64,000 nucleotides of DNA from Escherichia coli (lineage in GTDB: Bacteria; Pseudomonadota; Gammaproteobacteria; Enterobacterales; Enterobacteriaceae), in the NCBI RefSeq assembly GCF_016903815.1, contig NZ_CP069973.1; one strand, 5' to 3'. Numbering within the stretch: position 1 is the stretch's first letter; each line of letters begins with the position of its first letter. Shown one piece after another: positions 4,206-63,344 of the stretch. The notes under the pieces are model-generated. The model ran no database searches and was not told the origin of the DNA. It worked only from the letters and a program-made list of their open reading frames with translations. Position numbers and translations under genes: made by a program.

Positions 4206-4289
4206 AATCGTTTTTCCTTTTTGCAGATAAATGAAAACGCCAGCCCTGTTCAGGCTGGCGTCAGTGGAATGAAGTATGGTGAGTAATAT

Positions 4290-4712
4290 TTACCGGTTCT
4301 GGTGCAGAAGCTGCAGTTGGCGCAGGGTATGGATATCTTCCCTGGCCTGTTCAATGCAGGGCAACAGTGCTGCCGAATCCGTTTTATCCTCATCGTTGTC
4401 GAAGATAATCCCCGATTCGCAGTCGATATTGTCCTGCAGCCACACAATCAGAATATCCAGCGCCGTTTCTGTGGCTAATGGCATTACGCTCTGTATCACT
4501 GTATTGTCTTCCGGCAACTGATGAGGGCTGGCAGAGGTCGCCGGTGTTTCGGTAGTGACACGCTCATCCACCACGCGGAGTGAATAACCATTTTCCGCGA
4601 CTTTATTAAACAGTTCAGCGAGATTAACACCATCGACGTCAACGACAATGCGCCCCATGTTCAGTGCCTGCACGTTAATGCTGTCGGCTTCCAGCGTCAG
4701 GGCCAGTTTCAT
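4290..4712 (-). CDS. YeeW-like protein
   Basis: N-terminus [31 protein letters not shown] resembles YeeW; 4-bp overlap with the toxin gene. Confidence 0.6.
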
Positions 4713-10084: not shown

Positions 10085-10969
10085 TCAGAACAGACGATCC
10101 CACAGTGTTTCTAGCAGGCGGATAATGCGGTCCCGGGCTTTACGCAGAAGCTGTAACATCCAGACCGGAAAAGTGAACCGGGCAACGGCGTCGTCAAAAC
10201 TTTTCCCGATGGCGTCACCAAAAGTCTGTTGTGCGTGTTTCTGGGCCTGTTCAGAGCGGTTTTCCCCCCGGATATGTGAATAAACCGCACTGGTTGCCTG
10301 CGGTGGCAGGGCGTGGATCATCAGCGACACAAACGCCGGAAGATTCCAGCCGACAGGCGCAGCAACGGGGAGTACCGGAAATGATGACGGGAACAGGGTT
10401 GCCACCCTGGCTGTAACAGTTGCCAGTGAGAGTTCCTGGTGACGGGATGGGCATTTTTCTGTGGCATTCCATTCTTCAGCAGGAAACACGCGATCGGCAT
10501 GGCTGAGAACAAACAGAAAACGCGAGGGATCTGCACCTTCATTCAGTAAAAACTGATGCATGGCAATATCGGCAGCATACGCACGTTCATCAGCCCGCAG
10601 GATCCAGATAATCAGATCCAGTTCCGGCAGTAACTGACGGTAAAGCTCCCGGTATTCCTGATCATGCTGCGGTGTCTCACCAATGCCGGGCAGATCGACC
10701 AGCGTCATTCTGCGTTCACCAATCTGCAGGGTGAGGCGATGAGCCTGGCGGGTGCAGCCGTTCAGGGGATGCGTGGCGCAGATACGGGACTGAAAAATGG
10801 CATTACACAGACTGCTTTTGCCGGTGCCGGATTTACCCATAATGCCAATCACGGGCTCGTAATGAATAACACCGTGGAGATGTTCAAGGATTTTCTGGCG
10901 AATTTCTTCAGGAAGAAACGTCAGATATGATTTCACTTGCGCGGAGAGGGAAGAATTGCTGAATGGCAT
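10085..10969 (-). CDS. GTPase of the YeeP/YkfA/YfjP family
   Basis: P-loop GKSGTGKSS and DLPGIGE motifs. Confidence 0.85.
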   Translation of the reverse strand: MPFSNSSLSAQVKSYLTFLPEEIRQKILEHLHGVIHYEPVIGIMGKSGTGKSSLCNAIFQSRICATHPLNGCTRQAHRLTLQIGERRMTLVDLPGIGETPQHDQEYRELYRQLLPELDLIIWILRADERAYAADIAMHQFLLNEGADPSRFLFVLSHADRVFPAEEWNATEKCPSRHQELSLATVTARVATLFPSSFPVLPVAAPVGWNLPAFVSLMIHALPPQATSAVYSHIRGENRSEQAQKHAQQTFGDAIGKSFDDAVARFTFPVWMLQLLRKARDRIIRLLETLWDRLF

Positions 10970-11069
10970 ACCGGTATCCTGTTGATTTCACTGAACCGGA
11001 TCACACTAATCCGGTTTATCATTCAGGTAATATGGGTGTGAAAATTTTTCCATTGACGGGAAGAAGAGT

Positions 11070-12293
11070 ATGGCTAAAAACAAAGGTATCTGTCGGAATA
11101 AAAAATGCAGTAATCCTGTTTCAGAATTTGATGAGGCAAATGCCTTAAGGTTATGCGATGATCATTATAAGCTATGGAAGCGAAATAAAGAGAATCGTCG
11201 GGTCAGGAATATTTGTCGTATAATTAGTAGATATGACAAAAGTCTGGACTGGGAGATATTTTATAGAGTAAGAGATGCTGCAAAAAATAAAACGGGAAAG
11301 AGAATTATTGAGGACGCAAAAATATTACATCAATGGCGTGCTTCAAAGCAAGTAAGAAAAAGTTTTCACAAGGGTGTGCTTCGGTCACGGGAATGGCTTA
11401 ATACACAGGAGTTACTGAGCAGAAAACATATATCTGTTACAGGTGAACTATTTAAATTTTACATAAAAGATATTATCAGATTATATTGCTATAAGTTTCT
11501 CTACAGCAGAGAATATCTTAATGAAAACGCATACAAAAAACGATATCAGAGAGATATTCACCCCAGAAAAGTTAATGTTCCGATACTGCAACTTGAAGTT
11601 GCATGGATAAATAATAATTGCCGCTCAAGTGATTCAAGCACTGATATTATTATCCTTCCGAGGATGATAAGAAGAATGGTTGTATTTAATTATACGAAGA
11701 TAAATAAACAATTAGAGAAAGTGTTGGGGGGGATAGCACGAAAACAAACCTCAGAAAGAAATAAAGGCGGTCTCTATACCAGAATAAAAAAAGAAAGTGA
11801 CTTTCTTTCTATGGATAGATTTATGGTGGAAATAGAAAATATCATAAGACCTGAAAGGTTTCCTACATCAATTTATCCAGTCTTTTCACATTCATTTATT
11901 GAACGAGAGCTTCCGCTACTGAATCTTGCTCGATCACAGTATAAAAGAGCAATAAGTAAAAGAGTGGCGAATTCAATTTTTTATACTTTGCAAAAAACTA
12001 ACGTGGCATTATGGCTATATCTTGAAATGTTTGCTCTGGTGGCATTCATTAAACTGTATACAGGAAAAGGTTTTGAATTCATAAAGAACATGTGTGTATT
12101 TATCGATTATGAGAAAGGGATAATAAAATCCACACATGAAGAACTGCTGGGTGAAATTAAGCGTAACATTCAAGTGAATTTGAAGGTGAATCCTGATAAT
12201 TTTCCAGAGTTAATAGACATATACAATTCATGCTTTAGTGAAAATATATTGTCATATGATATTCAGGATGGTAATTTTAAATGGCGCTCATGA
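11070..12293 (+). CDS. Hypothetical 407-aa protein with Cys-rich N-terminus (C-x4-C ... C-x2-H), AT-rich gene
   Basis: Long uninterrupted ORF in a markedly AT-rich segment; no family recognised. Confidence 0.6.
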   Translation: MAKNKGICRNKKCSNPVSEFDEANALRLCDDHYKLWKRNKENRRVRNICRIISRYDKSLDWEIFYRVRDAAKNKTGKRIIEDAKILHQWRASKQVRKSFHKGVLRSREWLNTQELLSRKHISVTGELFKFYIKDIIRLYCYKFLYSREYLNENAYKKRYQRDIHPRKVNVPILQLEVAWINNNCRSSDSSTDIIILPRMIRRMVVFNYTKINKQLEKVLGGIARKQTSERNKGGLYTRIKKESDFLSMDRFMVEIENIIRPERFPTSIYPVFSHSFIERELPLLNLARSQYKRAISKRVANSIFYTLQKTNVALWLYLEMFALVAFIKLYTGKGFEFIKNMCVFIDYEKGIIKSTHEELLGEIKRNIQVNLKVNPDNFPELIDIYNSCFSENILSYDIQDGNFKWRS

Positions 12294-13455
12294 TGTAAAA
12301 ATATTAATTTCACATTACATATTAATTATTCACAAAAAACATATAATTAATTTCAATGAGTTACATATAAAAATGTTGATGATTAGCCAGCTTAGTATGG
12401 TTATGCAATGTGATGCTTAACGCTTACAGATAATAACACATTCATATGAGCTATATATCATAATATTCAATAATCATGATATGCTAATCTGATTATGGAT
12501 AAAAATTACTGAATGACGCCATATTATGATTGGCAGTGTTTCCTGTATACGATGACTTATCTCTCCCGCATCATATGGGGGCACGTTTCTTAGGAAAAGT
12601 GACGGGGTTACAGAAGCCAATTACGATAGTTTGTTGTAGAGTTATCACGAGTTTTTGTTGTTCTGAAGACGGAATCAAAAAAATAATTCCAGAGTAAACC
12701 TGTCTGTTTTTTGACCAGTAAAGATCCATGCTGGCCGTGAAAAACTGAAATCAACACTCAGTCTGCATGGATGTCTGAAGATATTGAGAATGTCGGGAAT
12801 GGTACTATATACGTATTATACAGACATATCTTCACTAAGTGTTATACACGCATTTTCATAGACAATCATACAAGTATTTTCATTAAGCATTGCTGTACAC
12901 ATTGCTTTGTCTGAAACACATCCAGTTTAGTAAATTTGTTAGTCCTTTTTTTACGATCGCTAAAATCAGTTAACCTCACTACAAAACCCTCTGTCCTGTT
13001 TAAGCAATCAAGATGATATTCGATTTTACTGAACCTGTGTTTAACCTTTTCTGAGTTTTCGTGTTTTAGTCGTTAACCTGAGAAAAGTATCTTTACGTAA
13101 AGCCCAGTGAATTAACTCAAATCCGATTGAGGTAACCTGATGCGATTTACTGTGAGTTTGCGATAACACTGTTAAATGGCTTATGGATGATTTTGTAACG
13201 GCGAGATTGATAAGGTGATTAACTGGCCCTGGTGTTTTTTCTCAGCGTAAGGTGATTATCTTCATCATAAGGCTCTTTTCAGAAAAAGTGTGATGATTGG
13301 TTGTGGTGTTTTGATTCAGATGAGGATCTGCCAATGATTATGATGTATTGTAAGAAATAACGCCTTCAGAATGTTGGAGCATGCACTTACACAAACTGTT
13401 TTTCTAAAATTAAGGGAACAGTTTAAAGAGTATAAACTGTTCATCTTCTTCAGGA

Positions 13456-13986
13456 TTAAGCTACATTGTTGTTATGACTGACAGGATTGTTTTCTTCCCC
13501 TGACTCTGGGCTTAACAGTCCCTGGCGTTGTAGATATTCACTGACTGACATTCCAGAACTACGGATCCTGTCAGAGATTTTACGAAATTGATCCTTCCAT
13601 TCTGCAGGTAATTTCTTAATTTGTCTGACTTTACAGGCTACACTGTACGGGGTTCGCCCTAGTTTCTCTGCTAGCCAGAAAAGGTGTTTACCAATTTCAT
13701 CGTCCGGTACATCCTCCAGAACATCTCGCAATAAACTCTCGTCTGCCTCATTCCATGCCACACCAGCATTTGGGAAACGAGGATCGATCTCTCTTTCCTT
13801 CTTCTCCTTCTTACTTTGCTCTTTTCGGGATGATACAGATACGACAGAACGTTCTTTTACCGCTGTAATTGCCATAACTGCATTGAGCAGAGATCTGCGC
13901 TCCACATCGTTCAGCATTTTTCCTTCACAGATCAAATCATTCAGGATGTCAATGACTAGATTCAGACTTTCTTCTGTTAGCTTCAT
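13456..13986 (-). CDS. Hypothetical 176-aa protein with Lys/Glu-rich linker
   Basis: ORF in AT-rich block; no family recognised. Confidence 0.5.
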   Translation of the reverse strand: MKLTEESLNLVIDILNDLICEGKMLNDVERRSLLNAVMAITAVKERSVVSVSSRKEQSKKEKKEREIDPRFPNAGVAWNEADESLLRDVLEDVPDDEIGKHLFWLAEKLGRTPYSVACKVRQIKKLPAEWKDQFRKISDRIRSSGMSVSEYLQRQGLLSPESGEENNPVSHNNNVA

Positions 13987-14655
13987 ATTTCAGACCTTGA
14001 AGTATGTAGATAATCAGCACAATTACTAATGTGATAAATATCAGAAGATAATTTACAGGTAAACCGGAAAATACATCTGAAGAATAAAGGCCTCAGCTTA
14101 ACGTTTCAGCCAGTTTGTGAGCTGATTGAGGTACGGCGATGACATTAACGGGAATTACTCCCCTATAGCTCTGAGCTTATTTTTCACCCTGGCAACATAT
14201 GGTGGCTACTGCGCATGGTTTTGGAGTAGATATCTTACTACTCGTAGAATTGTGCTTACTGGTCAGGCCAGCGCACAGGCATTCCGTGCAATCAATAGAA
14301 CACTGGTTTTTTAGTCTTCCGTTACCCATCAGGATGTTAGTGCAGATTCCGGTGTATTCGATCAGTTGTTCGGCGAATCAGCGATCGATCACGATGCGAT
14401 TTCGTATGTTAGGGATGCTGGTATGATTACTCGCTGAAAAATAATGTGAAAAGGCAGTTTTTCTTTAGACATTTAGCTCATTCATGCTGTTGTTTTACGT
14501 TTTGCTGTCGTGTGCAGGATTATCTTTTCGTTACGGGACGATTCATTCTGTTTTAATCAGGAGCCATTGGCGTTGCTCAATGGCGGGATGCCGTAAAGTT
14601 TTACCGCAGTGATTAATGATGTGAAGTCAATCCAAATCAACGGAGATCTCTCATC

Positions 14656-15387
14656 ATGAATCAACCAATACACAATGATTACTGGTTATCCCGTTTTGAA
14701 AGTATTCTCAACAGTGCCCTGGTGCAACACCGTGCCGTCTCGTTAATCCGGGTGGATTTACGTTTCCCTGAGTATATGCCTGTCACCATCATGGATCCCG
14801 ATCCGGATTCAGCGGTGATTTCCCGTTTTTTCGCATCCCTGAAAGCCAAAATTCAGGCTTACCAGCGGAAAAAAAGATGGGCCAATCAGCGTGTGCATGC
14901 AACCAGCCTGCGTTATTTCTGGTGCCGGGAGTTCGGCAAGATGTATGGCAGGAAACATTATCACGTGATATTACTGCTCAACAAAGATACCTGGTGCTCG
15001 CTCGGGGATTTCAGCGAACCGTCTTCGCTGGCGACGATGATCCAGGAGGCATGGTGCAGCGCCCTGCATCTTGAGCCCTGGCAAGGCGATGGCCTGGTCC
15101 ATTTTTCCAGGTGGACGCCTTCCCGTAAACCGACATCGTCTGATGCTCGCCCTTCTTCCGATGACACGCCTTTGTCGGGTGGATGTTCTGATACCAGGAA
15201 GGCTTCAGACAAAAAGCCAGGTGAAGCCGCTGTGCTCTGGATCAAGCGTGGTGATGTGGAAGCGCTGCAGAAAGCCCGGAACAGAGCCAGTTATCTCGTG
15301 AAATATGAGACGAAGCAGCATGACGGTTCCGGGCAACGTAATTATGGTTGCAGTCGTGGGCCGGGGCGTCTACTGGATGGCAGGTGA
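14656..15387 (+). CDS. YagK/YfjJ-family protein (Inovirus Gp2-like)
   Basis: N-terminal region resembles YfjJ/YagK of cryptic prophages; from memory. Confidence 0.5.
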   Translation: MNQPIHNDYWLSRFESILNSALVQHRAVSLIRVDLRFPEYMPVTIMDPDPDSAVISRFFASLKAKIQAYQRKKRWANQRVHATSLRYFWCREFGKMYGRKHYHVILLLNKDTWCSLGDFSEPSSLATMIQEAWCSALHLEPWQGDGLVHFSRWTPSRKPTSSDARPSSDDTPLSGGCSDTRKASDKKPGEAAVLWIKRGDVEALQKARNRASYLVKYETKQHDGSGQRNYGCSRGPGRLLDGR

Positions 15388-15907
15388 ACCCGGTAAAACA
15401 GCATCCGGTGCCTGAGCGTATACCACGGTCAGGACGTTGGCTGACGCCCTTAGCTCGTTTTCTGATAATCGCCCTGAAGTCATGAAACGGTATTTTTATC
15501 TGCTTCCATTCTCATGTTCATATTTCCCCTTACACTTTCACTGTCTGTCATTGGAAGTACCGATTTATTTTGGTGCTGCTCACTTACTGCCATTCACGGA
15601 AGAGGATAGTGGTGAACCGTACGATCCTGACTGCTGGCGAGGGAAGGTTCAGAACTGGTATGAGGTTTAGTGCTGGAAGATGACTTTGAATCCCGGACTG
15701 AGCAGTGAGGGGGCAGTGGGAGGATGCTCTGGTGTAACAGGCCTGGATTGCAAAATACAAAACCGGTTGTACACTCGTAACGGGCAAAAGGATACGGGCA
15801 ATAACACGTGGTACCCGGTGAGACAGGATCTTGTATCGCATTACCGGGAATATTCTGACAGGTGAAATGTTCTGATAAGAATCATCCTGAGGGAGGATAC
15901 AACGGAT

Positions 15908-16360
15908 ATGCACGTTATTAACAGCGGCATTCGTGATGTGAAATTTGGTGAAAATGTGAAAGTCGTCATGCCAGTAAACCTCTATGAATGTGAACTGGGG
16001 GATGATGTTTTTATCGGTCCCTTTGTGGAAATACAGAAGGGATGCATCATTGGCAAGCGGAGCCGAATTCAGTCCCACAGTTTCATCTGTGAGAACGTCA
16101 TTTTAGGTGATGGCTGTTTCATCGGTCATGGCGTAACTTTTGCTAATGATCTTTTTAAGTGTGGTGGTCCCGATGCCTCTGCAGAAAGCTGGATACGTAT
16201 CGTATTAGGTAACACTGTAACAGTGGGTAGCGGAGCGACTATTTTAACAACAGAAATTTGCAGTGGAGCAGTGATTGGGGCTGGTAGTGTGGTTACAAAG
16301 CCCGTGCTGGTAAAAGGCGTGTATGCCGGTAATCCAGCCAGACTTTTGAGAACGCTTTAA
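15908..16360 (+). CDS. Hexapeptide-repeat (left-handed beta-helix) acyl/acetyltransferase
   Basis: Repeated [LIV]G-x4 hexapeptide pattern (VILGDGCFIGHGVTF, IVLGNTVTVGSGATI). Confidence 0.75.
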   Translation: MHVINSGIRDVKFGENVKVVMPVNLYECELGDDVFIGPFVEIQKGCIIGKRSRIQSHSFICENVILGDGCFIGHGVTFANDLFKCGGPDASAESWIRIVLGNTVTVGSGATILTTEICSGAVIGAGSVVTKPVLVKGVYAGNPARLLRTL

Positions 16361-16895
16361 TTATTATATTTACAAATCGTAAGCCAGAATTGACTCCAGA
16401 CCATTATGTGTCTTATTCACCATGAGTGAAATGCGGGATGAGCCTGCAAGTTAAGAGGATATCGGAAACCAGCAACCAGGGCAGTGAGAGCGCTGTCGGG
16501 GTCATTGATATCTCCGAAGGGAAGCCCTGGTATAAGGTGTTTGCATAAAATTATTAAACAGGCTCATTTTTAGCGATCCTCATGAAATTCATCGTAACAT
16601 CCTGAATATCTTATGGTGTTTCCTGTCATCTCCGGTATTTATTCCGTTCATGCAAATAACCTGATGAAACAGGGCAACGCCATAAAACCGGATAAGGACA
16701 ACATGGATTAACGATAAAAATTGTGATCCTGTTTTCATTTTTCACTTTTTGATTCTGGACTGGTATTTACATTTCTAAAAACAGGCATAAAGTGAACACA
16801 TGTTTGATTTTGAATATATGTTCAACTCTATCTGCGTGGTCGAATAGAAATACAGATTTATTATTTTTGTGTTTTTAAATGTCAGGAGATGTGCC

Positions 16896-21206: not shown

Positions 21207-21643
21207 GATTATGCAACTGCCTGTTCGGTTTTTCGTCAGCGATCATCAAAGTAAATAGCTTCGTTTTTCCCGGTGAACGTGAAGCTAGGGGAGATTATAC
21301 TTCCAGATGTTCATTCAGGGCAGAAGAATAATACATCAGTTAATTTTCTGTTAGTACTTTGTAGTCGAATGTTTGGGGAGTGTGTCTGAATGACAGCCAG
21401 ATGGAATGACTTTTTGTAGCCAGGTCATGACTACGACTCATACGCTATTCTTAATTCTTATTTCTTTCCATTATACGCAAGTATTTTTAATTTAGGTTTA
21501 TTACTATAATTATATTCACTTTGTCTTTATTCACTCTGTTTTTACTTACTCTCTATCTTTACTCATTCCATTACTCTGACCCTCACCCGATTATACTTAC
21601 TCCCTTCCTTGTCTAATCTTCATTGCCACCATTATCATGGTAT

Positions 21644-21697
21644 CCACCTTCTCCACCTTCTCCACCTTCTCCACCTTCTCCACCTTCTCCACCTTCT
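21644..21697. repeat. Tandem repeat, 9-bp unit CCACCTTCT x 6
   Basis: Counted directly in sequence; lies in a 1.3-kb AT-rich region without a convincing ORF. Confidence 0.9.
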
Positions 21698-22533
21698 CCT
21701 TCATTCAATCATAACTACTGTAATTCATACGATACTCAGATAAGTTATTTTACTACGTTGTTGCTAATATCTACCTGTTATCAGTCTTCACTGAAACAGC
21801 AATTGATTTTAGTCATTATCCATAATGAACTGTATTGACTTAACGATGATTGTTGTTGACCTGAAGTGTTTTAACTATTCTGGTAAATATCAATACTTCT
21901 GTCATCACTGATTAACTGGATGTTTACTCTTTGATAAGGTATCCATGATTTCGTCATGTTTAACAGCGCAGGATAAACAATGAAATTAACAGAGTGAATT
22001 CCTGATTATATTTGTTCGTTTCTGATTATCTTGTATGTTAAACAAAATGAAAATTATCCATCCATGGTATATTTTATTCTGGTGCCGTGTACCCGTTAAC
22101 GCTCATGTTTTGAAGTGAGTTGTTTTTAACAGATTAAATGAGAGTGTATGATTTTATCAGGTTACAGATATGTGTTGGCCTTGTACACGTTTTTGCAGAC
22201 TCACTGAGAGCAAGTTTGTAGTTTATGATGTGATTGGTCGCAATATGTTTCTTAATCTCCAGGTAGTGGGGTTTTAGCTCGTATTTTACAGTATTTCGTG
22301 ATGTTTTATTGAGTCTGTATTTTCTTTACTCCTCGTTTATCTCATCTCTTTAGCTAATACCATCAGATAATCCATTTCTTTCTGCATAATGCTGCGTATC
22401 GTTAATAACCCGTCGTATCCATTCTGCTACAGCATGCCTGATAAATACCATCTGTAAGTTATTACCGTTATGAGCGAAAGCATTAATTCGTTCACAGAGC
22501 TTAAAACATCATTAACTTTCAGGAGTCATCAAC

Positions 22534-23100
22534 ATGCCTAAATCTTACACACCAAACTGGTTTTTTACCGCTTTACTTGACAATCACATCAATCAAATGA
22601 TGGCACGCTATTCCTGCCTGCGGGCCTTACGGATGGATTTCTTCTACAGGAAAGATACGCCCGATTTCTTACAACCTGATCATCGCTGGCTTGAATTGCA
22701 GTTGCGTATGCTGCTGGAGCAGGTGGAACAATTTGAAAATATCGTTGGTTTCTTCTGGGTGATTGAATGGACGGCTGATCATGGTTTTCATGCGCATGCG
22801 GTTTTGTGGATCGATCGTCAGAGGGTTAAAAAAATATATCCCTTTGCGGAGCGGATTACGGAATGCTGGCGGTCTATTACACATAACAGCGGTTCGGCAC
22901 ACCGCTGTACATATCAGCCGCATTATACATACAACATCAACATTCCTGTGCGCCACAACGATCCTGAAAGCATCGATAATATTCGCGGTGCCCTGCATTA
23001 TCTGGCAAAAGAAGAGCAAAAAGACGGGCTGTGTGCCTATGGCTGCAATGAAGTTCCTGAACGTCCTGCTGCAGGGCGTCCTCGTAACCCTCACTTCTGA
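22534..23100 (+). CDS. YagK/YfjJ-family protein (Inovirus Gp2-like)
   Basis: 188-aa ORF with family resemblance; from memory. Confidence 0.5.
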   Translation: MPKSYTPNWFFTALLDNHINQMMARYSCLRALRMDFFYRKDTPDFLQPDHRWLELQLRMLLEQVEQFENIVGFFWVIEWTADHGFHAHAVLWIDRQRVKKIYPFAERITECWRSITHNSGSAHRCTYQPHYTYNINIPVRHNDPESIDNIRGALHYLAKEEQKDGLCAYGCNEVPERPAAGRPRNPHF

Positions 23101-31696: not shown

Positions 31697-31965
31697 ATAT
31701 TTATAAATAATTTGTCACGAAAAAATTGAAATGGATCACAGCAACAAAAACAGCTCCGGCTCTGAAAGTAATGCTTCGGTTATTTGCAAGGGATACTCCT
31801 TTTCAAACCTTGCTGAACCAGTGCAGATACACAGGGAAACGTATACCAGAACTGCCACAATACAAACGCCAGTTACTGGCGATACGAATGGAATGACGAG
31901 GCAGTCTGTCAGAAAGCCCCACATGAACGATCACCACCTACATAGGAGGTGTTTTAAAATTGATC

Positions 31966-33769
31966 GAGTAGGAGGCGGGATCACTCCCGCCGTCCTCTCA
32001 CACCACCGTACGTGCGGTTCCGCATACGGCGGTTCATGTTAACTCTGGAACTGCCTCTACTGTTCCAGCAGTGATATCAGACCCTGCCTCCTGAACCATG
32101 CATTCTTTATCGCCTGATTCATATGGCTTGACCCTGAGTTCCACCATGGCCCGTGGTTGTTGTACGCAGAGATCATTGCCCTGTCCTTACTCAGTCCTGC
32201 TCTTTGCAGATTCTTTGCCCGGGTTCGCGGTCTCTTCCACTGCCGCTACAACAAGCAACGCAGTTTCCGTTTGATCCAGCCATCCAGCTCCTCCAGCACT
32301 CCTCTGACTTCCGTCAGCCTGAAGTAGCTTATCCATCCACACAGCACTGGTGTCAGAGCATTGATTGTCGCTTTCACTGATTTGCTCCGGTTTCCCGTCG
32401 TCAGACTGTGGACTTTCTCCTTCAGCCTGTTCACGCTCGTCAGGGCTATCTTCAGCTTCGCCTGTTTGTGCCATGTCACACTGTACCCGAGGAACTTCCG
32501 ATCCCACGGGCGCGCCACCGCGCTCTTCTTCTCATTCACCTTCAGTTTGTTCTCCACGAACGCCCTGATGTTCTTCAGCAGATGGTCGCCCGCTTTCCGG
32601 CTGCTTACGTAGATGTTGCAGTCGTCTGCGTAGCGGCAGAAGCTGTGTCCACGACGCTCTAGTTCTTTATCCAGTTCATCCAGCAGGATGTTCGACAGTA
32701 ACGGCGACAGTGGGCCGCCCTGCAGCATGCCCGCCTGCCGTTTCTCCCTTTGCCCGTCTTTAACCATTTCCACTTTCAGGTAGCGGCGTATCAGTCACAG
32801 CACCCGCCTGTCCTTTATCGTTCTGGCCAGACGCGTCATCAGGAGTCTGTGATCCACCCGGTCGAAGAACTTCTCCAGATCCATATCCACCACCCACCGT
32901 TTGCCACCCCGTATGTAACGCTGTGCCTGTTGCACCGCCTGCTGGATAAGCCTGTCCACCACCGTCGGGATGCCTGAGGTTCTCACGCCGCCATCCGGCT
33001 TCGGGATATCCATCCGGCGTATTGCCCGCGGCTGGTAGTTTCCGTCAATCAATGCCTGCCTGACGCTGCGCCAGTTCTTCTTCAGCCACGGTTTCAACTC
33101 CGCCACGCTGAGGTTATCCACCCCCGCCGTGCCTTTGTTTTCCAGCACGCGCTGATAAGCCAGCATCAGGTTTTCTCTCGTTATCACCGCTTCCATCGTC
33201 AGCGGCACTTCCGCTTTCGTTTGCCCACCCGCCGCCGTGCTGATTTCAGCGCCATCATGCAGCCCTGACGGATACTGTCCGTCTCCTCTGCCGCTGGTCG
33301 CAGTTGCCTGCGCTTGTGCTTCATTAATCATCATCGGGTTCGGATGTCCTAATCACAGTTAATCATGTTCGGCCCTTCATGCTGCCGGTTTTGCAGCACT
33401 ACTACGGCGTCGGCTGACTTCTGCCGCCCCATCCCGGCGCCTCACGGCGCCGGTAGCACACTGGCAGGGCGACAGATCTCCCGGGGTAATTCACGTGACT
33501 TTCCTGCTTATGCCTGTCGGCTTTACGTCACAGCGTTCCGTGTGAGTATCGGGCTTTGGTGATTTGTGCCACCTTACCCTGCTGCGCCGCCTTAACCGCT
33601 TCCTGTTCGTCAGGCCAGCATTTTGCATCCAGCTTCCTTCAGATTTCACCTCGCGATGAACACCCTTGCCTTCCGCTAACACTTCCCCTCACCGGGTGTG
33701 TGGAGGACTTTCACCTCTTAGTCGTTCTTCTGCCACCACAGTTGAAGAACAGCGCCAGTCACGGCGCAC
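31966..33769 (-). mobile_element. Degenerate group II intron (class C-like) inserted after a terminator hairpin
   Basis: 5' end GTGCGCC immediately after hairpin 33771..33810; domain V-like CCGTATGCGGAACCGCACGTACGG near 32000; disrupted RT ORF inside. Confidence 0.65.
32246..33334 (-). pseudogene. Group II intron reverse transcriptase, disrupted (in-frame stop, internal deletion, C-terminal truncation)
   Basis: Two abutting ORFs (179 and 175 aa) with RT motifs FCRYADDCNIY and GGPLSPLLSNILLDELD. Confidence 0.8.

Positions 33770-60604: not shown

Positions 60605-63344
<2,740 letters not shown>

What the first reader, a model, noticed from the sequence alone, without database searches (positions are those of the whole stretch)
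12294..14655. Two ~1-kb AT-rich stretches with no ORF of 60 aa or more, flanking a single unrecognised 176-aa gene
Roughly 12420..13455 and 13990..14655 lack convincing ORFs, which is unusually long for a bacterial intergenic region. Such stretches often hide small RNAs, gene remnants or H-NS-silenced regulatory DNA. The enclosed gene (13456..13986) has a charged KEQSKKEKKEREI linker and no recognised domain.
Basis: seen in the sequence. Interest (0 to 1): 0.45.

Follow-up and report, generated by a model that had tools for sequence, protein, structure and literature searches.

The report
Ordinary non-coding island DNA, regulator cassette
The two gene-free stretches are real but look like ordinary, roughly neutrally evolving spacer and leader DNA of a common mosaic E. 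coli genomic island, and the gene between them is a small DNA-binding protein carried on its own insertable cassette.

Summary
Window 12294-13455 (1162 bp, 34% GC) and 13987-14655 (669 bp, 42% GC) carry no credible gene. The window is an E. coli CP4-like island.

The region is a mosaic of five pieces:
- a 386-bp flank linked to the 407-aa gene;
- a ~650-bp non-coding "core" (12680-13325), found in 1865 of 5426 complete E. coli genomes and always upstream of an HUH Rep-like "inovirus Gp2" gene;
- a 1153-bp alternative block (13326-14478) carrying the 176-aa gene;
- a 177-bp Gp2 leader.

I found no Rfam match, no conserved RNA structure, no conserved ORF and no gene remnant. Core diversity (pi 0.17) is not below that of synonymous sites in the flanking genes (0.10-0.15), and invariant columns are not clustered. 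Only about 45 nt before the Gp2 start are constrained.

The 176-aa protein is real and under purifying selection. It has relatives in Klebsiella and Salmonella that NCBI names "DNA-binding protein". Its predicted C-terminal domain has a homeodomain-like fold.

Best reading: AT-rich junction and leader DNA, plausibly silenced by H-NS, plus an autonomous regulator cassette. An origin for the Rep-like protein, or a leader RNA, remain unproven minority readings. Interest is low.

The parts
11070..12293 (+). The 407-aa hypothetical gene. It is one allele of a fast-evolving gene family that always sits next to the island's GTPase gene; the other alleles are 376 aa, or 310 aa plus a 269-aa gene on the opposite strand.
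   Evidence: ORF. The alleles are distant homologues (25-30% identity over ~105 aa, E 1e-4). Conserved position. No Pfam, PHROG, NCBIfam or PADLOC match.
12294..12679 (.). AT-rich (about 29% GC) 3' flank that travels only with the 407-aa allele. It is less conserved than the coding sequence.
   Evidence: Homology to loci carrying other alleles begins only at query position ~370-387. Against locus L007 the flank is 66-76% identical and the CDS 91%. A weak terminator-like hairpin lies at 12563-12581.
12680..13325 (.). Shared non-coding 'core' of the island backbone. It is present in about a third of complete E. coli genomes and always lies upstream of the Gp2 gene. It has no conserved ORF, no conserved structure, and evolves at about the neutral rate.
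12784..12811 (+). Promoter-like element, read either as TTGAGA-N16-TATATA or as an extended -10 TGgTACTAT at 12800-12808. It points towards Gp2. This is an inference only.
   Evidence: Read directly from the sequence. The block is kept in all alleles of alignments A1 and A2, although AATGTC within it was part of the pattern used to collect loci L019 onwards. The consensus scan did not flag it.
12810..12925 (.). Degenerate direct-repeat array with ATACAC... and TTTTACTAAGTG motifs. Copy number varies among alleles, and the window carries a short version.
   Evidence: Indels are concentrated here. Tandem Repeats Finder reports period 12/25 with 5.2 copies in L003 but nothing in the window. Repeated 9-mers in the window core do not exceed shuffles.
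13326..14478 (.). A 1153-bp alternative block that replaces a ~290-bp spacer found in most islands. It carries the 176-aa gene.
   Evidence: 26 of 80 loci have the long block. 638 of 5426 complete genomes cover at least 80% of the whole 2362-bp query.
13416..13442 (.). 10-bp-stem hairpin just downstream of the 176-aa gene's stop codon. It is terminator-like on both strands.
13456..13986 (-). The 176-aa protein. It has an N-terminal helical hairpin, a disordered K/E-rich linker, and a C-terminal homeodomain-like DNA-binding domain.
14077..14096 (-). Terminator-like hairpin upstream of the 176-aa gene, which would insulate the cassette from leftward read-through.
   Evidence: Consensus match only.
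14479..14655 (+). Leader of the Gp2 gene, shared by 2470 of 5426 genomes. Only the last ~45 nt (14611-14655) are under clear constraint. That segment holds the ribosome-binding site GGAG inside the palindrome GAGATCTC.
   Evidence: Diversity is 0.0 for -40..-21 and 0.007 for -20..-1, and 0.006 for -30..-1 against about 0.07 across the gene.
14656..15387 (+). The 'inovirus Gp2 family' protein, a putative HUH rolling-circle Rep or relaxase-like protein. It carries an HYH motif (KHYHVILLL) and a two-tyrosine motif (YLVKYETK).
   Evidence: Pfam YagK_YfjJ_C at 5.8e-35 and REP_ORF2-G2P at 1.5e-7. PHROG replication-initiation families at 1e-5 to 6e-3. The motifs were read from the translation.

Best explanation
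Both stretches are genuine non-coding DNA belonging to the backbone of a horizontally acquired, mosaic CP4-like E. coli island. They are junction and leader DNA lying between exchangeable cassettes. From left to right they comprise:
- the private 3' flank of the 407-aa allele;
- a ~650-bp shared AT-rich core;
- an alternative 1.15-kb block;
- the leader of the HUH Rep-like Gp2 gene.

They do not hide a structured RNA gene or a decayed known gene.

Inferred mechanism (not shown): the AT-rich DNA separates the leftward GTPase-to-CbtA arm from the rightward Gp2 arm. It carries promoters and untranslated leader sequence, and is probably kept quiet by xenogeneic silencing (H-NS, with Rho terminating untranslated transcripts). 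Its conserved segments also act as homology anchors for swapping the neighbouring cassettes.

The 176-aa gene is a self-contained unit with its own ribosome-binding site and flanking terminator-like hairpins. It encodes a dimer-type DNA-binding regulator.
For: Shown:
- The locus architecture is the same in about 100 independent loci and in an identical annotated genome.
- Homology breakpoints define the mosaic pieces.
- No Rfam match. The consensus fold is weak with almost no covariation. No conserved helices on either strand. Folding z-scores are unremarkable.
- No conserved ORFs, and ORF content equals that of shuffled sequence.
- No family hit to six-frame translations and no remnants of island genes.
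- Core diversity is 0.17, against 0.098 and 0.151 at four-fold degenerate sites of the Gp2 and GTPase genes.
- Invariant columns are not clustered: the longest run is 8, P=0.26.
- Natural deletions and IS insertions are tolerated.
- Constraint appears only in the ~45 nt before the Gp2 start.
- The 176-aa protein is under purifying selection and has a DNA-binding fold. Only its coding sequence, not its flanks, is shared with Klebsiella.
- Distant relatives of the island also have a 400-1356-bp, 25-39% GC gap upstream of Gp2, with no sequence similarity to this one.

Inferred from general knowledge of H-NS and Rho silencing of AT-rich acquired DNA: the silencing role.
Against: - A gene-free region of 1.1-1.6 kb is retained, with core length 617-767 bp, across alleles that differ by up to 29%. 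This is longer than expected if the DNA had no function at all.
- A promoter-like block and a variable-copy repeat array are present in all alleles.
- The neutral-rate comparison is crude: it uses pairwise diversity, is not phylogeny-aware, and recombination is evident.
- No expression or H-NS binding data were available.
Confidence: 0.6

Rival explanations
1. The core, perhaps together with the Gp2 leader, is the cis-acting origin for the adjacent HUH Rep-like Gp2 protein. That could be a replication origin or a transfer origin (oriT-like). The variable-copy direct repeats would be protein-binding iterons and the AT-rich DNA would be the unwinding region. This would be analogous to the intergenic origin region next to gene II of filamentous phages.
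For: - Gp2 has HUH and two-tyrosine motifs and matches Pfam REP_ORF2-G2P and PHROG replication-initiation families.
- The core is always upstream of Gp2 and in the same orientation relative to it.
- Some alleles carry a significant repeat array: 9 copies of a 9-mer against a shuffle maximum of 6, and a TRF period of 12/25.
- A similar ACAC..TTTT motif is repeated three times upstream of the Brenneria homologue.
- The 41 nt before Gp2 are nearly invariant.
Against: - In the window itself the repeats do not exceed chance.
- The motif is absent upstream of four of five distant homologues, and it was chosen after seeing the data.
- There is no DnaA-box cluster and no conserved hairpin that could present a nick site.
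- Diversity is neutral-like and large natural deletions occur.
- The core has no similarity to plasmid or phage DNA.
- An opposite-strand gene cassette can sit between the core and Gp2.
Confidence: 0.12
2. The core is transcribed from the promoter-like element at about 12784-12811 into a long, largely unstructured leader or regulatory RNA. This RNA would control the Gp2 arm, conceptually like the leader and CI-RNA immunity region of satellite phage P4. In this window it would run antisense towards the 176-aa gene and end at the 13416-13442 hairpin.
For: - A promoter-like block is kept in all alleles.
- A hairpin that is terminator-like on both strands lies at 13416-13442.
- In a 5-bp stem at 12719-12762, one-sided substitutions are mostly compatible with G-U pairing on the plus strand.
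- Folding z is about -2 on the plus strand for 12654-12833.
Against: - No Rfam family matches.
- No compensatory changes support any helix.
- The promoter was not flagged by the consensus scan.
- The T-tail on the plus strand after the hairpin is poor.
- There is no sequence constraint.
- No expression data were available.
Confidence: 0.12
3. The stretches are the eroded remains of one or more genes that were inactivated before the island alleles diverged.
For: Neutral-like diversity with retained length would fit an old pseudogene. Distant relatives have a ~320-aa gene between the GTPase and Gp2 genes.
Against: - Six-frame translations match no NCBIfam family at E<=1.
- tblastn with the ~320-aa proteins and with all island proteins gives only chance hits at E>0.3.
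- PGAP does not mark a pseudogene there in the genomes listed.
- ORF lengths equal those of shuffled sequence.
Confidence: 0.05

Closest known systems
Backbone of E. coli CP4-type cryptic elements and tRNA-associated islands (CP4-57, CP4-6, CP4-44 of K-12)
   Same: The gene set and order match. There is a YfjP/YkfA-type GTPase, DUF932, an antirestriction protein, a RadC/JAB protein, DUF987 and the CbeA/CbtA toxin-antitoxin pair on one arm, and a YagK/YfjJ (inovirus Gp2 family) gene, with YfjI in many relatives, on the other arm.
   Different: K-12 lacks this core, this 243-aa Gp2 subfamily and the 176-aa gene: local blastn against CP4-57 and CP4-6 found nothing. In CP4-57 yfjJ follows yfjI after about 150 bp, with no kilobase-scale leader.
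Xenogeneically silenced AT-rich intergenic DNA of acquired islands (H-NS binding, Rho termination of untranslated transcripts)
   Same: GC content of 29-42% against about 50% for the host, long untranslated DNA, island context, and no sequence constraint.
   Different: Binding of H-NS and action of Rho were not and could not be tested here. This is an inference from general knowledge.
Intergenic origin region next to the gene II replication initiator of filamentous phages, and double-strand origins of rolling-circle replicons
   Same: A long non-coding region lies immediately upstream of a gene for an HUH-type initiator-like protein.
   Different: There are no conserved hairpins and no recognisable nick site. 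The repeats are not above chance in the window, and there is no similarity to phage or plasmid DNA.
Phage 'morons' (autonomous cassettes of promoter, gene and terminator inserted between backbone genes)
   Same: The 176-aa gene lies in a presence/absence block. It combines freely with different neighbouring alleles, is flanked by terminator-like hairpins, and only its coding sequence is shared with relatives in other genera.
   Different: The block is 1153 bp, of which about 380 bp (14100-14478) are unexplained and highly variable. The promoter has not been mapped.
Homeodomain-like three-helix DNA-binding domains (homeodomains, Myb/SANT, RAP1, GcrA DNA-binding domain)
   Different: There is no Pfam match to Myb or homeodomain families. 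Multi-repeat proteins hit by the profile are not Myb proteins according to Pfam. The family is small: 57 clusters among 1.84 billion representatives.

Membership tests
Any curated RNA family (Rfam 15) | Covariance-model match at or near the family's gathering score | tested here: not met
   No match up to E=1 in 10500-16500. The gathering-threshold scan of the whole window found only group II intron pieces elsewhere.
Structured non-coding RNA (uncurated) | Conserved secondary structure supported by compensatory base changes and by folding energy below that of shuffles | tested here: not met
   RNAalifold gave -27.3 kcal/mol over about 700 nt, with 3 of 75 pairs compensatory. No helix longer than 7 bp on either strand. 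Mean folding z-score -0.25.
Pseudogene or decayed known gene | Translated similarity to a protein family or to a syntenic gene in relatives | tested here: not met
   No pseudogene is annotated under the homologous DNA in the genomes listed.
Iteron-type or rolling-circle origin | Adjacent gene for an initiator protein | tested here: met
   The Gp2 gene lies downstream in every locus with enough flank. It matches Pfam REP_ORF2-G2P at 1.5e-7, and HUH and tyrosine motifs are visible in its sequence.
Iteron-type or rolling-circle origin | Several regularly spaced direct repeats, above chance | tested here: inconclusive
   Above chance in allele L003 (9 copies against a shuffle maximum of 6; TRF period 12/25) but not in the window core (4 against a shuffle maximum of 4).
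Iteron-type or rolling-circle origin | Conserved hairpin presenting a nick site, or a DnaA-box cluster | tested here: not met
   No conserved helix. No DnaA box within 12680-13325.
Iteron-type or rolling-circle origin | Initiator-dependent nicking or replication | not testable with these tools
   Needs biochemistry or copy-number assays.
H-NS-silenced acquired DNA | AT content well above the host average | tested here: met
   34% and 42% GC, with local minima of 29%.
H-NS-silenced acquired DNA | H-NS occupancy and derepression in hns or rho mutants | not testable with these tools
   No ChIP or RNA-seq data were available.
HUH endonuclease superfamily (for the neighbouring Gp2 protein) | HUH motif followed by catalytic tyrosine motif(s) | tested here: met
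   KHYHVILLL and YLVKYETK appear in the translation. Pfam matches. Catalytic activity was not tested.
Myb/SANT or homeodomain DNA-binding proteins (for the 176-aa protein) | Sequence-profile match to the family | tested here: not met
   No Pfam hit at E<=0.001 in any of 20 family members. The PDB profile search found nothing.
Myb/SANT or homeodomain DNA-binding proteins (for the 176-aa protein) | Three-helix homeodomain-like fold | tested here: met
NikA-like ribbon-helix-helix relaxosome proteins (for the 176-aa protein) | Pfam NikA-like match and an N-terminal beta-strand | tested here: not met
   i-Evalue 0.025 only, over 26 residues. The model is all-helical.

The most novel reading that the evidence does not exclude
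These CP4-like islands could be rolling-circle replicating or mobilisable elements. Their HUH Gp2 protein would act on the long upstream non-coding region, made up of the core with its variable-copy repeats plus the invariant 41-nt block before the gene. The 176-aa homeodomain-like protein would be an optional regulator of that origin or promoter.
Probability: 0.1. Interest if true: 0.55.

Novelty: new member of a known kind. Interest (0 to 1): 0.2.

Why it matters
The main value is negative. A conspicuous 2.4-kb stretch of low gene density, present in about a third of complete E. coli genomes, does not need a hidden RNA gene or pseudogene to explain it. It can be annotated as island backbone spacer and leader DNA. 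Three smaller points add some value:
- The region is resolved into exchangeable cassettes bounded by shared segments.
- The 176-aa "hypothetical" protein can be described as a small homeodomain-like DNA-binding protein that is shared with Klebsiella plasmids and chromosomes.
- The neighbouring "inovirus Gp2 family" gene carries intact HUH and tyrosine motifs, and has a nearly invariant 41-nt block immediately upstream of its start codon. That block is the obvious place to look if anyone tests whether these islands replicate or are mobilised.

Tried and rejected
**RNA hypotheses, rejected**
- Rfam scans found nothing relevant.
- The consensus fold on 33 non-redundant copies was weak.
- An exhaustive helix and covariation scan on both strands found nothing.
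- Sliding-window folding z-scores were unremarkable.

**Coding hypotheses, rejected**
- No conserved ORFs in the core, in the short spacers or in the right gap.
- Six-frame translations gave no NCBIfam match.
- tblastn found no remnants of island genes or of the ~320-aa gene of distant relatives.

**Searches for relatives**
- The K-12 elements CP4-57 and CP4-6 have no homologous DNA.
- The phage collection gave no match, and the plasmid collection gave only three E. coli records.
- The genome-contig scan with Gp2 peptides returned only 2 loci.
- The viral-contig scan returned 6 loci, of which only L016 contains the core.

**Origin hypothesis**
- The DnaA-box search was negative.
- The ACAC..TTTT motif appears in E. 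coli and Brenneria only, and was chosen after seeing the data.
- The repeat test in the window did not exceed chance.
- The inverted repeat in the Gp2 leader is not maintained by compensatory changes.

**The 176-aa protein**
- Foldseek with the full-length model gave nothing significant.
- The weak Pfam NikA-like hit and the weak PHROG "D5-like regulator" hit were not corroborated.
- The Myb idea was not supported by sequence profiles.

**Literature**
- Searches on YfjJ/YagK, CP4 elements and pheV islands gave nothing about this non-coding region.

**Caveat**
- Loci L019 onwards were collected with a pattern from the core (AAAATAAYTCMAGAGTAAA-N~90-AATGTC). Invariance of those 25 positions is therefore by construction.
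Full report
**Where the window comes from.** The 2362-bp region is 100% identical to many complete E. coli chromosomes. In strain M217 it lies in an island adjacent to the gsp/yghD type II secretion operon. The island has two arms.
- A leftward arm is typical of CP4-like elements: GTPase, a helix-turn-helix regulator, DUF905, DUF932, an antirestriction protein, a JAB/RadC protein, DUF987, a YeeU-type antitoxin, a CbtA toxin and DUF4942.
- A rightward arm starts with an "inovirus Gp2 family" gene at window 14656-15387.

**The observation.**
- The left stretch (12294-13455) is 1162 bp at 34% GC. The right stretch (13987-14655) is 669 bp at 42% GC.
- The longest internal ORFs are 55 aa and 75 aa. 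These values are indistinguishable from shuffled sequence of the same composition, where the median longest ORF is 58-59 aa.
- The 62-aa and 75-aa ORFs in the right stretch are disrupted in close variants and show no codon-position bias.
- The stretches are therefore truly gene-free.

**Anatomy from comparison.** blastn against 5426 complete E. coli genomes, followed by local alignments, splits the region into modules.
- 12294-12679 is found only in loci that carry the 407-aa allele.
- 12680-13325 (the "core") is alignable at 70-100% identity in 1865 genomes and almost never has an annotated feature.
- 13326-14478 is an alternative block. Most islands have an unrelated spacer of about 290 bp here instead.
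- 14479-14655 is shared by 2470 genomes.

I collected about 100 loci: E. coli genomes, one viral contig, and a metagenome scan with a core-derived pattern.
- The order is always the same: GTPase (minus strand), then a variable gene, then the allele-specific flank, the core, the spacer, and Gp2 (plus strand).
- Gp2 lies 413-487 bp after the core in 53 loci, 226 bp after it in one, and 1205-1314 bp after it in 26.
- The variable gene comes as a 407-aa form, a 376-aa form, or a 310-aa form accompanied by a 269-aa gene on the opposite strand. The first three are distant homologues of each other.
- The 176-aa block combines freely with all of them.

The region is thus a mosaic of cassettes bounded by shared segments.

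**Is there an RNA gene?**
- A permissive Rfam scan found nothing.
- I aligned 33 core sequences that are non-redundant at 96% identity, with a minimum pairwise identity of 71%.
- On that alignment RNAalifold gave only -27 kcal/mol for about 700 nt, and 3 of 75 predicted pairs showed double-sided changes.
- A scan of my own for any helix of 5 bp or more kept in at least 90% of sequences found nothing longer than 7 bp on either strand, which is normal for AT-rich DNA.
- Sliding 120-nt folding z-scores averaged -0.25 on both strands.
- One short stem (12719-12762) shows mostly G-U-compatible one-sided changes. This rests on about five events and is not significant.

**Is there a gene or a gene remnant?**
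- No ORF is conserved in position or frame in the core or in the short spacers.
- Six-frame translations match no NCBIfam family at E<=1.
- tblastn found no trace of the island's own proteins, nor of the ~320-aa gene that occupies the equivalent position in Providencia, Morganellaceae and Brenneria relatives.

**Is the core under selection?** This was the key test.
- In 34 loci that have complete flanking genes, pairwise diversity is 0.17 in the core.
- The same measure is 0.098 at four-fold degenerate sites of Gp2 and 0.151 at those of the GTPase gene.
- Invariant columns make up 42% of the alignment and are no more clustered than in column shuffles: the longest run is 8, P=0.26. The longest runs also partly coincide with the pattern I used to collect loci.
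- Natural deletions inside the core, IS insertions and IS-mediated truncation all occur.
- The wide "conservation" therefore reflects relatedness of the islands, not detectable constraint.
- The exception is the DNA immediately upstream of Gp2. Positions -40 to -21 are invariant in 54 distinct alleles, and diversity over -30 to -1 is 0.006, against about 0.07 across the gene.
- This block holds the ribosome-binding site GGAG within the palindrome GAGATCTC. It looks like an ordinary but tightly conserved translation-initiation or operator region.

**Repeats and origin-like features.**
- The central part of the core is a degenerate array of ATACAC... and TTTTACTAAGTG motifs with variable copy number.
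- Tandem Repeats Finder detects it in a long allele (period 12/25), and repeated 9-mers there exceed shuffles. In the window's short allele they do not.
- A similar ACAC..TTTT motif is tripled upstream of the Brenneria Gp2 homologue but absent from four other distant loci. I defined the motif after seeing the data.
- There is no DnaA-box cluster and no conserved hairpin.
- The neighbouring Gp2 protein does look like an HUH initiator. It matches Pfam YagK_YfjJ_C at 5.8e-35 and REP_ORF2-G2P at 1.5e-7, it hits PHROG replication-initiation families, and it carries the motifs KHYHVILLL and YLVKYETK.
- An origin function for the upstream DNA is therefore conceivable, but this evidence does not support it.

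**The 176-aa protein.**
- It is a real gene. Variable sites fall 8/10/20 by codon position.
- Homologues at 51-63% identity occur in Klebsiella spp. and Salmonella, and NCBI names them "DNA-binding protein".
- They are found in a chromosomal islet next to folD, and on plasmids near KfrA and a TacA/T toxin-antitoxin pair.
- Only the coding sequence is shared with those loci, not the flanks.
- Pfam recognises nothing above threshold.
- AlphaFold2 predicts an N-terminal helical hairpin (residues 5-51), a disordered K/E-rich linker, and a confident five-helix C-terminal domain with pLDDT 88.9.
- The family is small: 57 clusters among 1.84 billion representatives.
- The gene is preceded by an AAGG ribosome-binding site. 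A terminator-like hairpin follows its stop codon at 13416-13442, and another lies upstream at 14077-14096.
- Together with its presence/absence behaviour, this makes it look like an autonomous, moron-like regulator cassette.

**Relatives outside E. coli.**
- The 243-aa Gp2 subfamily is confined to E. coli at 84% identity or more. The next relatives are 35-43% identical.
- Their loci keep the same plan: a GTPase or a ~320-aa gene on the minus strand, an AT-rich gap, then Gp2 and AlpA on the plus strand, followed by defence-like cargo.
- Their gaps are 400-1356 bp at 25-39% GC and have no similarity to the core.
- Within the window, a second gene-free stretch (21207-22533, 35.6% GC) precedes a second YagK/YfjJ-family gene.
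- A long AT-rich upstream region thus recurs in this gene family, but its sequence is not conserved. That fits promoter, leader or silenced DNA better than a specific RNA or an origin with a conserved recognition sequence.

**Verdict.** The finding is a correct observation of unusually long gene-free DNA, but what is there is ordinary.
- It is mosaic, AT-rich, neutrally evolving junction and leader DNA of a very common E. coli island, plus a small DNA-binding regulator cassette.
- The silencing mechanism is inferred from general knowledge, not shown.
- The origin and leader-RNA readings are kept as minority rivals, and they can be tested by the experiments listed under next steps.

Noticed in passing
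window 14611-14655: About 45 nt immediately upstream of the Gp2 start codon are nearly invariant across 54 alleles (diversity 0.006 for -30..-1). The rest of the leader and the gene itself vary. The block contains the ribosome-binding site GGAG inside the 8-bp palindrome GAGATCTC, which includes a Dam GATC site.
   Followed up: partly
window 14656-15387: The 'inovirus Gp2 family' protein carries an HUH-type motif (KHYHVILLL) and a two-tyrosine motif (YLVKYETK), and matches Pfam REP_ORF2-G2P. These islands may therefore encode an active rolling-circle initiator or relaxase.
   Followed up: partly
window 11070-12293; L002 2458-3588; L003 1711-2643: The 407-aa, 376-aa and 310-aa genes next to the GTPase gene are highly diverged alleles of one family (25-30% identity over ~105 aa). 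They match no family in Pfam, PHROGs, NCBIfam or PADLOC.
   Followed up: partly
L008 about 4236-4330 and equivalent positions in other short-spacer loci (not in the window): Short-spacer alleles begin with a possible ORF of 30-42 aa encoding a basic N-terminus followed by a hydrophobic helix (VLKSNVFRIRKSILMLVVFVLVAGL...). It resembles small membrane or type I toxin peptides. The start codon is GTG or TTG, and the C-terminus falls in a poorly conserved segment.
   Followed up: no
window 21207-22533: A second gene-free AT-rich stretch (35.6% GC, 1.3 kb) lies upstream of a second YagK/YfjJ-family gene (22534-23100). It has no sequence similarity to the first stretch.
   Followed up: partly
window 31963-33660 (-) and 62788-62874 (+): Rfam matches at gathering score to group II intron domains: D1-D4 pieces and domain V/VI.
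   Followed up: no
NZ_CP195442.1 and two other genomes (hits H1-H3); L126 2288-3000: Insertion sequences are tolerated in this DNA. An IS5-like ISEc35 sits inside the left stretch in three genomes. In strain PI24, IS1 abuts the DNA 41-56 nt upstream of Gp2 and replaces everything further upstream.
   Followed up: partly
L117-L125: Distant relatives of the island in Providencia, Morganellaceae, Brenneria and unnamed contigs keep the Gp2-AlpA pair. It is followed by defence-like cargo: NACHT, KAP NTPase plus QatB, TIR, WYL, or a type I restriction enzyme. This suggests a defence hotspot downstream of Gp2/AlpA.
   Followed up: no
window 14126-14478: The part of the 176-aa block nearest the Gp2 leader is far more variable among otherwise near-identical blocks than the rest: 41% of sites vary, against 8-11% elsewhere. 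One variant carries a ~110-bp deletion here.
   Followed up: no
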